Assembly: GCF_001677475.2 (NCBI RefSeq)
Contig: NZ_CP015229.1
DNA: 64,000 nucleotides
From: Escherichia coli
Lineage (GTDB): Bacteria; Pseudomonadota; Gammaproteobacteria; Enterobacterales; Enterobacteriaceae
Reading direction: 5' to 3' (one strand)
A program made the translations under genes and the position numbers. Below the pieces are notes generated by a model. The model saw nothing but the letters and a program-made list of their open reading frames with translations. It was not told where the DNA came from and made no database searches. Within the stretch, counting starts at the first letter, position 1, and every line of letters begins with the position of its first letter. Below are positions 50,301 to 50,964 of the stretch, in pieces.

Positions 50301-50504
50301 ATGAGAAATCATACCACACACCCGCAAGGGCGGGACTCGCACAACCTGAATAAATACATCTGGCGTTTTATCGCCCTGAGCACGGCACAACCGCGCGTAA
50401 TTCACATCGTGGCCACCAGCGAACAGGAAGCGCGTCAGCAATCTCCTGATGGCTGCGTGATGGTATTCGCCGCCCGTATTCGTCAGGGGTCACATCATGC
50501 GTAA
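50301..50504 (+). CDS. Icd-like protein 1
   Basis: 67 aa. YIWRFIALSTAQPRVIHIVATSEQEARQQSPDGCVMVFAARIRQG is paralogous to the 50791 gene and fits the pattern of P1/P4-type Icd-like proteins. Confidence 0.65.
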   Translation: MRNHTTHPQGRDSHNLNKYIWRFIALSTAQPRVIHIVATSEQEARQQSPDGCVMVFAARIRQGSHHA

Positions 50505-50790
50505 AAACCGCTTGCAAAAAATTATCACGGGACTGTATGCTTCCCGCGTCACCCACATGGTGACCGGGTTTGACAGCCTGAATACTACAGCGGACAGCCG
50601 CTTACATTCCGATATGCGGTTTTTTTGTGTCCGTAAACCTACCCATACCCGCATTATGGCGGGGCGTAACGGGGGAGCCTTTGCGCTCGCTGGTTCCTGT
50701 AGTGCCAGTCTGTCAACCCTGTTACGTCTCGCCACCATGTTTGACAGCGTAGTAGCGAGACTCCTTAATTTCACTACAGGAGCCTTTCAC

Positions 50791-50964
50791 ATGGCTGTAT
50801 CCACACGCCCTTATTTTGTCTGGCGCTTCATGCAGTGCCATGAAAAACAAACCTCACTCTTTACCGTCACGGCTGCCACTGAGCGCGAAGCACGCGCGCA
50901 GCTGCCGCACGCACATCTGATTTTTGTCGCCCGTATCCGTCAGGGGGTAAACCATGTTCAGTAA
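50791..50964 (+). CDS. Icd-like protein 2
   Basis: 57 aa, YFVWRFMQCHEKQTSLFTVTAATEREARAQLPHAHLIFVARIRQG, with RBS AGGAG. Confidence 0.65.
   Translation: MAVSTRPYFVWRFMQCHEKQTSLFTVTAATEREARAQLPHAHLIFVARIRQGVNHVQ

What the first reader, a model, noticed from the sequence alone, without database searches (positions are those of the whole stretch)
50301..50964. Tandem Icd-like paralogues separated by a 290-nt structured leader that may encode a C4/CI-type antisense RNA
**Seen in sequence.**
- Two small paralogous genes (50301-50504 and 50791-50964) share the core W-R-F...V/T-A-T/A-S/T-E-x-E-A-R...FxARIRQG.
- The spacer between them contains a promoter-like TTGCAA-18 nt-TATGCT (50512-50541).
- It also contains the hairpin GTCACC-CACAT-GGTGAC and a T7 run at 50620-50626. 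Together these would give an RNA of about 80 nt.
- The 9-mer TTTGACAGC occurs at 50569 and again at 50742, just upstream of the second gene's RBS.
- The downstream 9-mer copy is followed by GTAGTA (50751), which is complementary to the TACTAC at 50584 that lies just downstream of the first copy.

**Established knowledge.** In P1 and P7 the icd-ant operon is controlled by the roughly 77-nt C4 antisense RNA encoded just upstream. In P4, immunity depends on a small CI RNA pairing with repeated leader sequences.

**Inference.** The satellite may use an analogous RNA-based immunity or anti-termination circuit.
Basis: partly seen in the sequence, partly recalled or inferred. Interest (0 to 1): 0.6.

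Follow-up and report, generated by a model that had tools for sequence, protein, structure and literature searches.

The report
P1-type C4 antisense RNA switch in satellite
The spacer between two small Icd-like genes of a phage satellite holds a clear relative of phage P1's C4 antisense RNA with its four target sites, probably shutting off the satellite's replication genes; it is a known kind of switch in a setting where I found no description of it.

Summary

- **The RNA.** Rfam's C4 antisense RNA model (RF01695) hits window 50652-50739 (+) at 72.3 bits, against a gathering score of 45. Window 50562-50749 is about 80% identical in DNA to the phage P1 immI region.
- **Mapping from P1.** Every annotated P1 feature maps onto the window: promoter -10 (50536-50541), a1 (50570-76), b1 (50584-90), mature C4 (50658-50736), a2 (50741-47), b2 (50772-81, over the ribosome-binding site of icd2) and the icd start (50791).
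The promoter, hairpin and T7 run are not C4. They form the upstream a1/b1 element, an IsrK-like leader RNA.
- **The repeats.** The 9-mer repeat is a1/a2. The GTAGTA/TACTAC match is coincidental.
- **Covariation.** Across 20 related loci, the C4 loop b' covaries with both b1 and b2, giving at least nine specificity classes among the satellites alone.
- **Context.** The element is a capsid-forming PICI-like satellite inserted in a prophage terL gene. Downstream of icd2 lie replication genes, not an antirepressor.
- **Relatives.** Some carry two or three such modules in tandem, which explains the tandem Icd genes.

Verdict: a new member of a known kind, of moderate interest.

The parts
50122..50204 (+). 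Promoter of icd1 with operator-like repeats. The promoter is TTGACG-18-TATGTT at 50163-50192. The repeats GTGTAAGACA(C) lie at 50122-32 and 50168-78, with an inverted copy at 50193-50204. A divergent promoter for the YlcI/YnfO-family gene lies at 50159-50132 (-).
   Evidence: Consensus scan; repeats. The -35 hexamer is conserved in relatives, while the repeat sequence differs between them. Function is inferred.
50301..50504 (+). icd1, an Icd-like protein of 67 aa, not preceded by C4 target sites.
   Evidence: NF033153 at 71.8 bits. Its counterparts in relatives carry the same C-terminus VFAARIRQGSHHA and follow a C4 of their own.
50512..50541 (+). Leader promoter TTGCAA-18-TATGCT. It is positionally homologous to P1 promoter P1c4 (formerly P51b).
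   Evidence: The -10 hexamer aligns base for base with the annotated P1 -10. The simple consensus scan does not call it.
50548..50564 (+). Hairpin 1 of the a1/b1 (IsrK-like) element, GUCACC-CACAU-GGUGAC.
   Evidence: c4-a1b1 and isrK alignments; 5 of 6 pairs have compensatory changes.
50565..50580 (+). Hairpin 2, which presents target site a1 (UUGACAG, 50570-50576) in its loop.
   Evidence: It maps to P1's annotated a1 and is complementary to a'.
50584..50590 (+). Target site b1, ACUACAG, complementary to the C4 loop b'.
   Evidence: All 7 b1-b' pairs change on both sides across 20 relatives.
50596..50626 (+). Weak hairpin (CCGC...GCGG, 14-nt loop) followed by U7: a terminator or attenuator that would end an IsrK-like RNA of about 79 nt.
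   Evidence: isrK model alignment at 33.7 bits. The stem and T run are conserved but show no compensatory change. The fold is weak and the terminator scan does not call it. Termination is inferred from Gifsy-1 IsrK (PMC4825925).
50652..50739 (+). C4 antisense RNA gene (Rfam extent). The mature RNA, by alignment to P1 c4, spans 50658-50736. Loop b' is UCCUGUAGUG (50695-50704). The single-stranded a' is CUGUCAA (50710-50716).
   Evidence: RF01695 at 72.3 bits against a gathering score of 45, full model. About 80% DNA identity to P1. Fold -44.9 kcal/mol, z -5.75. Helices covary.
50741..50747 (+). Target site a2, UUGACAG.
   Evidence: Maps to P1's annotated a2. It lies in the loop of a conserved hairpin formed by 50726-32 with 50755-61.
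50772..50782 (+). Target site b2, CACUACAGGA (50772-81), overlapping the Shine-Dalgarno AGGAG (50778-82) of icd2.
   Evidence: A 10-nt exact complement of b' that is unique in the window. 8 of 10 pairs change on both sides across relatives. Duplex energy is -20.1 kcal/mol, against -3.7 for P1's b2.
50791..50964 (+). icd2, an Icd-like protein of 57 aa and the gene directly controlled by C4. Its stop overlaps the start of the next ORF (50954).
   Evidence: NF033153 at 55 bits. Same position as P1 icd. ORF overlaps.
50954..54835 (+). Presumed C4-controlled operon. It comprises small ORFs (50954-51175, 51168-51290, 51380-51625), DUF4222 (51631-51930), a RepA/AAA_25 helicase (51927-53336), an ORF at 53353-53790, SSB (53787-54212) and PerC (54216-54509). 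It ends at the terminator at 54810-54835.
   Evidence: Pfam and PHROG hits. No + strand promoter or terminator is called inside it. The same gene order follows icd2 in 14 or more related satellites. Control by C4 is inferred.

Best explanation
**What it is.** The 286-nt spacer is a complete P1-type immI RNA module carried by a capsid-forming PICI-like phage satellite.

**How it is made.** A leader promoter (50512-50541) transcribes, in order:
- an a1/b1 element (two hairpins, then a weak terminator with U7);
- the C4 RNA (about 79 nt, 50658-50736);
- the sites a2 and b2;
- icd2.

**How it most likely works.**
- C4 is cut out of this transcript. In P1 this is done by RNase P.
- Its single-stranded a' (CUGUCAA) and hairpin loop b' (UCCUGUAGUG) pair with a2 and b2 on the mRNA.
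- b2 covers the ribosome-binding site of icd2, so icd2 is not translated.
- icd2 overlaps the next ORF and heads an operon with no internal promoter. Blocking its translation should therefore also silence the downstream replication genes (DUF4222, RepA helicase, SSB) and PerC, through lost translational coupling and Rho-dependent polarity as in P1. This would keep the satellite quiescent.
- The upstream a1/b1 copy is a decoy with the same code. It can occupy C4 either in cis in read-through transcripts or in trans as a short terminated RNA like Salmonella IsrK, and so relieve repression.
- The b code is hypervariable between otherwise near-identical satellites, which would make each C4 act only on its own class.

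**Shown versus inferred.**
- Shown here: family membership, homology to P1, site complementarity, three-way covariation and gene context.
- Inferred: RNA processing, translational repression, polarity on the replication operon and the decoy role.

**Confidence.** About 0.95 that this is a C4-family RNA with cognate target sites; about 0.7 for the mechanism; 0.8 overall.
For: **Identity of the RNA**
- RF01695 scores 72.3 bits over the full model.
- Window 50562-50749 is about 80% identical in DNA to P1 immI.
- Every annotated P1 feature maps onto a matching window feature.
- The predicted mature C4 folds at -44.9 kcal/mol, z -5.75.

**Sites and complementarity**
- a' is complementary to a1 and a2 over 7 nt.
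- b' is complementary to b1 over 7 nt and to b2 over 10 nt, covering AGGAG.

**Covariation**
- b1-b': 7 of 7 pairs change on both sides.
- b'-b2: 8 of 10 pairs change on both sides.
- Slid controls pair in only 34-44% of cells, against 96%.
- About 20 loop classes each have a cognate b1 and b2 at fixed positions.
- a' also covaries: P7, loci with a' UGCCAA and first-module C4s of relatives.
- Cognate b'-b2 duplexes average -14.9 kcal/mol, non-cognate -6.1.

**Context**
- icd2 followed by small ORFs, DUF4222, RepA and SSB recurs in 14 or more satellites.
- No internal promoter or terminator is called.

**a1/b1 as decoy**
- The minimum-energy fold of the whole leader pairs a1/b1 with a'/b' in cis.
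[quoted passage not shown] **P1 mechanism**
- P1 GenBank notes and PMC8198154.
Against: - There is no expression, processing or reporter data for this element.
- The leader promoter is weak by consensus and was not called by the scan.
- The terminator hairpin is weak and shows no compensatory change.
- c4-a1b1 (42.1 bits against 46.7) and isrK (33.7 against 50) fall below their gathering scores in the window.
- The antirepressor gene that C4 controls in P1 is absent, so the biological output is inferred from gene order only.
- The Gifsy-1 model of the homologous locus stresses cis structure and trans activation rather than a trans-acting repressor.
- The icd2 frame is open across the whole leader in 16 of 17 satellites, which leaves room for translation through the RNA region.
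Confidence: 0.8

Rival explanations
1. **IsrK-type activation is the main logic.** The read-through leader is locked in an inactive fold, with a1/b1 paired in cis to a'/b' and the ribosome-binding site in a hairpin. The short terminated a1/b1 RNA acts in trans to open it. C4 would then be mostly a cis structure, not a diffusible repressor.
For: - The isrK model aligns to 50548-50626.
- Bona fide isrK hits of 61-66 bits precede the first C4 in relatives.
- The minimum-energy fold of 50548-50800 pairs a1/b1 with a'/b'.
- CUCCU/AGGAG can sequester the Shine-Dalgarno sequence.
- The mechanism was shown experimentally in Gifsy-1 (PMC4825925).
Against: - The window's element scores only 33.7 bits for isrK, and its terminator is weak.
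- The closest DNA relative is P1, where C4 is annotated as a trans-acting repressor of icd/ant translation.
- b2 is a longer match to b' than b1 is (10 against 7 nt), which favours C4-b2 pairing.
- This reading is not exclusive of the best explanation.
Confidence: 0.25
2. **P4 CI-like attenuation.** C4 pairing with a1/b1 on nascent transcripts favours termination at the U7 hairpin. Control would then be by premature transcription termination upstream of C4 and icd2, not by blocking translation.
For: - a1/b1 lie immediately upstream of a hairpin plus U7.
- An alternative hairpin, GCGG-ACAG-CCGC, competes with the terminator stem in the predicted fold.
- P4 CI works this way on seqA/seqC, as summarised in PMC4825925.
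- Here, as in P4, the controlled genes are replication genes of a satellite.
Against: - b1-b' pairing does not extend into the competing hairpin (sequence).
- The terminator stem shows no covariation.
- Terminating upstream of C4 would also stop C4 synthesis.
- No sequence or model similarity to P4 CI was found.
Confidence: 0.15
3. **The spacer is protein-coding.** The 155-aa ORF at 50497-50964, a long Icd-like protein as annotated in RefSeq, would be real, and the RNA motif irrelevant or a relic.
For: - The icd2 frame is free of stops over 98 codons in 16 of 17 satellites, against 2.7% of shuffles.
- An ATG at 50497 overlaps the icd1 stop.
- RefSeq places the C4 region inside an Icd-like CDS.
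- phrog_29966 aligns over the whole 155 aa.
- In Gifsy-1, orf45, which overlaps the C4-like RNA, is translated.
Against: - Variation between relatives is concentrated in b1, b' and b2, and preserves base pairing rather than amino acids.
- There is no conserved start codon.
- L118 has three in-frame stops.
- P1-type leaders have in-frame stops in 9 of 10 loci.
- There is a strong covariance-model hit and structure.
Confidence: 0.04

Closest known systems
Phage P1/P7 immI module (c4-icd-ant; Rfam RF01695 C4 and RF03163 c4-a1b1)
   Same: - About 80% DNA identity from a1 to a2.
- The same order: promoter, a1, b1, hairpin plus U run, C4, a2, b2 over the ribosome-binding site, icd.
- The same a code as P1 (UUGACAG/CUGUCAA).
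- The same fold.
- An Icd-like gene immediately downstream whose stop overlaps the next ORF.
   Different: - The b code is new: CUGUAGU, against CACUAAC in P1 and CACAAUC in P7.
- There is no ant gene and no C1 operator.
- The downstream genes are a satellite replication module.
- The host element is an integrated satellite of about 15 kb, not a 90-100-kb phage-plasmid.
- Icd is shorter (57 against 73 aa).
- A second Icd-like gene lies upstream of the module.
Salmonella Gifsy-1 IsrK-orf45 (STnc1160)-anrP locus (Rfam RF01394; PMC4825925)
   Same: - Two hairpins, with the second presenting a UUGNCA-type loop.
- A terminator gives a short RNA of about 77 nt, and read-through continues into a C4-like processed RNA and a downstream gene.
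- The a1/b1 region is complementary to the downstream RNA.
   Different: - The window's element scores only 33.7 bits against a gathering score of 50.
- Its terminator loop is 13-14 nt instead of about 4.
- The downstream gene is icd-like rather than orf45/anrP.
- The Gifsy-1 authors did not describe the downstream RNA as C4.
Satellite phage P4 immunity (CI RNA with seqA/seqB/seqC)
   Same: - A small RNA processed from the leader of the satellite's own early or replication operon.
- It pairs with repeated sites upstream and downstream of itself.
- It would keep replication genes off in the integrated state.
   Different: - No sequence or covariance-model similarity was found.
- P4 acts by premature transcription termination.
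- P4 has no icd gene.
- The island here is a capsid-forming PICI type (own capsid, portal and terminase), not P4-like (no sid, psu or delta).

Membership tests
C4 antisense RNA (Rfam RF01695) | Covariance-model score at or above the family's gathering score over the full model | tested here: met
   72.3 bits against 45, model positions 1-87 of 87, window 50652-50739 +.
C4 antisense RNA (Rfam RF01695) | Fold: a long closing stem enclosing two hairpins, with a single-stranded a' segment and b' in the second hairpin loop | tested here: met
   The minimum-energy fold reproduces it (-44.9 kcal/mol, z -5.75). The closing stem and first hairpin show compensatory changes, in 6 of 12 and 3 of 4 pairs.
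P1/P7 immI module | a' and b' complementary to a2 and b2 in the same transcript, with b2 over the ribosome-binding site of the next gene | tested here: met
   7-nt a'-a2 and 10-nt b'-b2 matches covering AGGAG. 8 of 10 b'-b2 pairs covary.
P1/P7 immI module | A second copy of the sites (a1, b1) upstream of C4 (c4-a1b1 motif, RF03163) | tested here: inconclusive
   The sites are present and align to P1's annotated a1/b1, and 7 of 7 b1-b' pairs covary. The RF03163 score is 42.1 bits, below the gathering score of 46.7. Close relatives reach 46.8-48.5 bits.
P1/P7 immI module | icd gene immediately downstream | tested here: met
   icd2 matches NF033153 at 55 bits. Its ATG aligns with the P1 icd ATG.
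P1/P7 immI module | Antirepressor genes ant1/ant2 downstream of icd | tested here: not met
   tblastn with P1 Ant1 finds it after icd in P1-type loci. It finds none in the satellite-type loci homologous to the window, including L068, whose matched proteins are 100% identical to the window's. The window itself was not in the searched database. The window's own downstream ORFs are DUF4222, AAA_25 helicase, SSB and PerC.
P1/P7 immI module | C1 repressor operator at the upstream promoter | tested here: not met
   No match to ATTGCTCTAATAAATTT (consensus quoted from memory) with up to 3 mismatches anywhere in the window. A different repeat, GTGTAAGACA, flanks the icd1 promoter.
P1/P7 immI module | C4 released from a precursor by RNase P; repression of translation followed by Rho-dependent termination | not testable with these tools
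   Only the stem followed by an ACCA tail (50734-50737) can be seen in the sequence.
IsrK (Rfam RF01394) | Covariance-model score at or above the gathering score | tested here: not met
   33.7 bits against 50 at 50548-50626. The architecture is the same, and true isrK hits of 61-66 bits occur in the first modules of relatives.
P4 CI RNA immunity | Homology to P4 CI and its seqA/seqC sites | not tested
   No match other than C4, c4-a1b1 and isrK came out of the Rfam scans. I did not verify that a P4 CI model is in the library, and I made no direct comparison with P4 sequence.
Capsid-forming PICI (cf-PICI) satellite | An integrase, AlpA, a replication module, and its own capsid, protease, portal, adaptor, HNH and small and large terminase genes, with no tail genes | tested here: met
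   Pfam and PHROG hits across 46822-61602. There are no tail genes between the adaptor and the right end. 21-nt direct repeats lie at 46847 and 62023.

The most novel reading that the evidence does not exclude
Capsid-forming PICI-type satellites may use P1-type C4 RNAs as their main lock on replication, with three further features.
- A hypervariable 7-10-nt 'b' code would make co-resident satellites blind to each other's RNA, giving RNA-based heteroimmunity among satellites.
- The modules can be stacked two or three in series, each [IsrK/a1b1 - C4 - icd] unit with its own code, to form a cascade.
- In the window, the first unit would have swapped its RNA for a protein-operator promoter.
Probability: 0.45. 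Interest if true: 0.55.

Novelty: new member of a known kind. Interest (0 to 1): 0.4.

Why it matters
- **Control of satellites.** How capsid-forming PICIs are kept silent and then induced is poorly described. The cf-PICI and satellite papers I could read do not mention an antisense RNA, or list Icd-like genes only as accessory genes. A P1-type C4 switch directly ahead of the replication operon gives a concrete, testable control point.
- **Natural orthogonal regulators.** Near-identical backbones differ only in three short, mutually complementary cassettes. This offers a natural set of orthogonal RNA regulators, and a way to ask whether satellites exclude or ignore each other.
- **Annotation.** The RNA gene is unannotated in RefSeq E. 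coli genomes. It is hidden under an over-extended Icd-like CDS, although related leader sequence occurs in about 1630 of 5426 complete E. coli genomes.

Tried and rejected
It shows no covariation. GTAGTA is part of the 3' strand of a different hairpin.
It is the a1/b1, IsrK-like element.
- **Genome-contig scans.** The window-class 26-mer gave no hit. The taxonomic range and the host species were therefore not established.
- **Host identity.** E. coli genomes match the flanking prophage at only 86-90%. They match the island at 95-98% over 73-80% of its length.
- **SymR-like antisense hit upstream of icd1.** It scored 28.9 bits against a gathering score of 61 and was not reproduced on a shorter stretch, so I treat it as unproven.
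- **C1 operator search:** nothing.
- **PDB sequence search with icd1:** nothing.
- **Literature.** No paper in the library links C4 or an antisense RNA with PICI or cf-PICI. The P1 genome paper and the icd paper are not held, so the classical P1 mechanism rests on the P1 GenBank notes, PMC8198154 and my own knowledge.
- **Not used.** The large protein searches and structure prediction, because the question turned on RNA.
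Full report
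**1. Checking the observation**

Both match NCBIfam NF033153, 'host cell division inhibitor Icd-like protein', at 71.8 and 55 bits against a cutoff of 25. They are 40% identical over 48 residues, E 8e-12.

- The promoter-like TTGCAA-18-TATGCT (50512-50541), the hairpin GTCACC-CACAT-GGTGAC (50548-50564) and the T7 run (50620-50626) are exact.
- Three coordinates are off by one or two bases: the second TTTGACAGC is at 50740, GTAGTA at 50749 and TACTAC at 50583.
- The 9-mer count alone is not beyond chance: 2 copies against 0.94 expected, with 24 of 100 shuffles reaching 2 or more.
- What makes these features real is homology and covariation, described below.

**2. What is in the spacer**

A scan of the whole window against Rfam finds one C4 antisense RNA (RF01695) at 50652-50739 on the + strand. 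It scores 72.3 bits against a gathering score of 45 and covers the full model. A permissive scan of 50100-51100 adds two matches below their gathering scores, just upstream:

- c4-a1b1 (RF03163), 50535-50584, 42.1 bits against 46.7;
- isrK (RF01394), 50548-50626, 33.7 bits against 50.

C4 itself lies downstream of it.

BLAST against phage records shows that window 50562-50749 is 75-82% identical in DNA to the immI region of P1, P7, D6 and related phages. The P1 record annotates every part of that region. Through alignments A1 and A2 these parts map onto the window as follows.

| P1 feature | Window position |
|---|---|
| a1 | 50570-76 |
| b1 | 50584-91 |
| Mature C4 | 50658-50736 |
| a2 | 50741-47 |
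| b2 | 50773-80 |
| icd ATG | 50791 |

**3. The pairing code**

- In the window, the C4 segment a' is CUGUCAA (50710-16). It is the exact complement of UUGACAG at a1 and a2.
- The hairpin loop b' is UCCUGUAGUG (50695-50704). It is the complement of ACUACAG at b1 and of CACUACAGGA at b2.
- b2 covers the Shine-Dalgarno AGGAG of icd2.
- Both 10-mers are unique in the 64-kb window.
- Compared with P1, a', a1 and a2 are unchanged, but b' differs: CUGUAGU against CACUAAC.
- b1 and b2 differ in the matching way.
- P7 differs from P1 in both codes, again with matched targets.

**4. Conservation and covariation**

A scan of IMG/VR for the 15-mer around a' returned 120 loci.

- **Loop classes.** Among the genuine C4 loci there are about 20 different b' loops. 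In every class the 7-nt b1 lies about 120 nt upstream and the 7-10-nt b2 about 65 nt downstream, and both are exact complements of that class's own loop.
- **b1-b' pairs.** On a 20-sequence alignment (A2), all 7 b1-b' pairs change on both sides, and 88.6% of cells are paired.
- **b'-b2 pairs.** 8 of 10 b'-b2 pairs change on both sides, and 90.4% of cells are paired.
- **Controls.** Sliding the partner by 1-3 columns drops pairing over the whole structure from 96% to 34-44%.
- **Terminator stem.** It is conserved but shows no compensatory change.
- **The a code.** It covaries as well. Loci with a' UGCCAA carry UUGGCA on both sides in 14 of 24 cases. First-module C4s in relatives have quite different a' sequences, each with matching a1 and a2.
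- **Duplex energies.** Cognate b'-b2 duplexes average -14.9 kcal/mol and non-cognate ones -6.1. The window's own pair gives -20.1, against -3.7 with P1's b2.
GTAGTA/TACTAC does not covary.
- **Helix X.** GTAGTA lies in the 3' strand of another conserved hairpin, formed by 50726-32 with 50755-61. This hairpin places a2 in its loop and uses the 3' strand of the C4 closing stem. RNAalifold finds it, with compensatory changes in 4 of 5 pairs.

**5. Context**

The surrounding element runs from about 46847 to 62043. Its genes, in order:

- integrase, two AlpA-like genes and a Bro-N protein;
- a divergent YlcI/YnfO-family gene;
- icd1, the RNA module and icd2;
- small ORFs, DUF4222, a RepA/AAA_25 helicase, SSB and PerC;
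- capsid, protease, portal, adaptor, HNH and small and large terminase.

There are no tail genes. This is the make-up of a capsid-forming PICI.

The element interrupts a prophage terL gene. The left piece, 45689-46882, matches phrog_9 positions 169-448. The right piece, 62130-62855, matches positions 449-673. Relatives in E. coli do the same.

Among the IMG/VR loci two architectures separate cleanly:

- P1-type phage-plasmids: module, then icd (73-74 aa), then ant;
- integrative satellites like the window: icd, module, icd2 (57 aa), small ORFs, DUF4222, RepA, SSB and PerC.

L068 encodes proteins 100% identical to the window's. At least nine b classes occur within the satellite type, on backbones that are otherwise nearly identical. 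The window's exact b' class is in only 10 of 5426 complete E. coli genomes. Related leader sequence is in about 1630 of them.

**6. Why the Icd genes are in tandem**

Running Rfam over relatives shows two C4 genes in L021, L032, L063 and L074, and three in L051. A bona fide isrK match (61-66 bits) lies ahead of the first C4.

- Each unit has its own a and b code with cognate sites, and each is followed by an Icd-like gene.
- The first-unit Icd in these relatives ends in VFAARIRQGSHHA, as the window's icd1 does.
- The tandem paralogues are therefore the remains of tandem [IsrK/a1b1 - C4 - icd] units.

In the window the first unit has no RNA. Instead, icd1 has:

- a consensus-like promoter (50163-50192) flanked by three copies of GTGTAAGACA;
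- a 5' UTR with a conserved, covarying hairpin (50231-50265) followed by UAACCACCAACG.

**7. Most likely mechanism**

By homology with P1 (GenBank notes; PMC8198154; and, from my own knowledge, Citron and Schuster 1990 and Biere et al. 1992), the steps would be:

- C4 is processed from the leader transcript.
- It pairs with a2 and b2 and blocks the icd2 ribosome-binding site.
- Through lost translational coupling and Rho-dependent polarity, this prevents expression of what follows.

Here what follows is the satellite's replication operon. icd2 overlaps the next ORF. No promoter or + strand terminator is called before the terminator at 54810-54835.

The a1/b1 element can occupy C4 in cis, as in the minimum-energy fold of the whole leader. 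It could also act in trans as a short RNA ended at the U7 run, as shown for IsrK in Gifsy-1. There, a processed RNA of about 80 nt lies where C4 would be (PMC4825925).

Membership, complementarity, covariation and context are shown. Processing, repression, polarity and the decoy role are inferred.

**8. Rivals**

- An IsrK-type activation logic and a P4 CI-type attenuation are both compatible with the anatomy. They are not exclusive of the main explanation.
- Reading the spacer as coding sequence has one point in its favour. The icd2 frame is stop-free across the 294-nt leader in 16 of 17 satellites, in 1 of 10 P1-type loci, and in 2.7% of shuffles.
- Against it, variation preserves base pairs rather than amino acids, and there is no conserved start.

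**9. Novelty**

The RNA is a clear member of a described family, and the module is homologous to P1's. What differs is:

- the host element, a cf-PICI-type satellite;
- the controlled genes, which are replication genes rather than an antirepressor;
- a new b code;
- the serial stacking of modules in relatives.

I found no paper in the library that connects C4 or any antisense RNA with PICIs or cf-PICIs. One recent paper only notes Icd-like genes in most Enterobacter satellites. The library is incomplete, so this is absence of evidence. I rate the finding a new member of a known kind, with interest 0.4.

Noticed in passing
window 45689-46882 and 62130-62855; repeats at 46847-46867 and 62023-62043: The satellite, about 15.2 kb, is inserted inside the terL gene of a resident prophage. 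The two terL pieces match phrog_9 positions 169-448 and 449-673. It is flanked by 21-nt direct repeats, GTGTATTGC(A/G)CTGTGTATTGC. Related islands in E. coli 2014C-3075 and SCU-171 split a prophage terL in the same way.
   Followed up: partly
L021, L032, L063, L074 (two C4 each); L051 (three C4); e.g. L063 3235-3311 isrK, 3333-3420 C4, 3466-3663 icd, 3810-3898 C4: Related satellites carry two or three [IsrK/a1b1 - C4 - icd] units in series. Each unit has a different a and b code and its own cognate target sites. The window keeps only the second RNA unit.
   Followed up: partly
window 50497-50964 (+): The icd2 reading frame stays open through the whole RNA leader (155-aa ORF whose ATG overlaps the icd1 stop). 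This holds in 16 of 17 related satellites, against 2.7% of shuffles. RefSeq annotates the C4 region as part of an Icd-like CDS, and phrog_29966 matches the long form. It may be an annotation artefact or a dual-function leader, as with orf45 in Gifsy-1.
   Followed up: partly
window 50122-50204: Three copies of GTGTAAGACA(C), two direct and one inverted, bracket the -35 and -10 of the icd1 promoter and the divergent YlcI/YnfO-family gene promoter. Relatives keep the -35 hexamer but have different repeats, as expected for operators of a repressor with variable specificity.
   Followed up: partly
window 50231-50277 (+) / 50228-50300 (-): A conserved, covarying hairpin in the icd1 5' UTR is followed by the conserved motif UAACCACCAACG. 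On the minus strand the region folds better (-37.9 kcal/mol, z -5.05, against -32.5, z -2.6). It gave a weak SymR-like antisense match (28.9 bits against a gathering score of 61) that was not reproduced on a shorter stretch.
   Followed up: partly
window 50726-50761 (+): The 3' strand of the C4 closing stem (GUCUCGC) can pair instead with GCGAGAC downstream, which puts target site a2 in the loop. This alternative helix has compensatory changes in 4 of 5 pairs across relatives and excludes the C4 closing stem.
   Followed up: partly
window 61684-61734 and 61813-61837: Three direct copies of GCGGGTTA are followed, about 80 nt later, by three copies of its complement TAACCCGC. They lie in the non-coding stretch between the satellite's terL and its right end. 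This is an iteron-like array of unknown role (origin, packaging site or regulator binding).
   Followed up: no
window 50301-50504, 50791-50964 (PHROG hits): PHROG families matching Icd-like proteins (phrog_6196, phrog_1743) are labelled 'transcriptional repressor'. This probably goes back to early records that annotated c4 as a protein-coding repressor gene (for example X15639, 'c4: CDS').
   Followed up: no
L244 8926-9468 (E. coli 2014C-3075 island): A closely related island encodes a ProQ/FinO-family RNA chaperone at the position where the window has PerC. It keeps only a partial Icd-like gene in its regulatory region.
   Followed up: no
loci L132-L241 from genome contigs (Acinetobacter spp.): Many Acinetobacter genomes contain the same 15-mer around a', preceded by a C4-like b' hairpin with varied loops. 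This suggests that C4 modules with the P1-type a code extend beyond Enterobacteriaceae.
   Followed up: no
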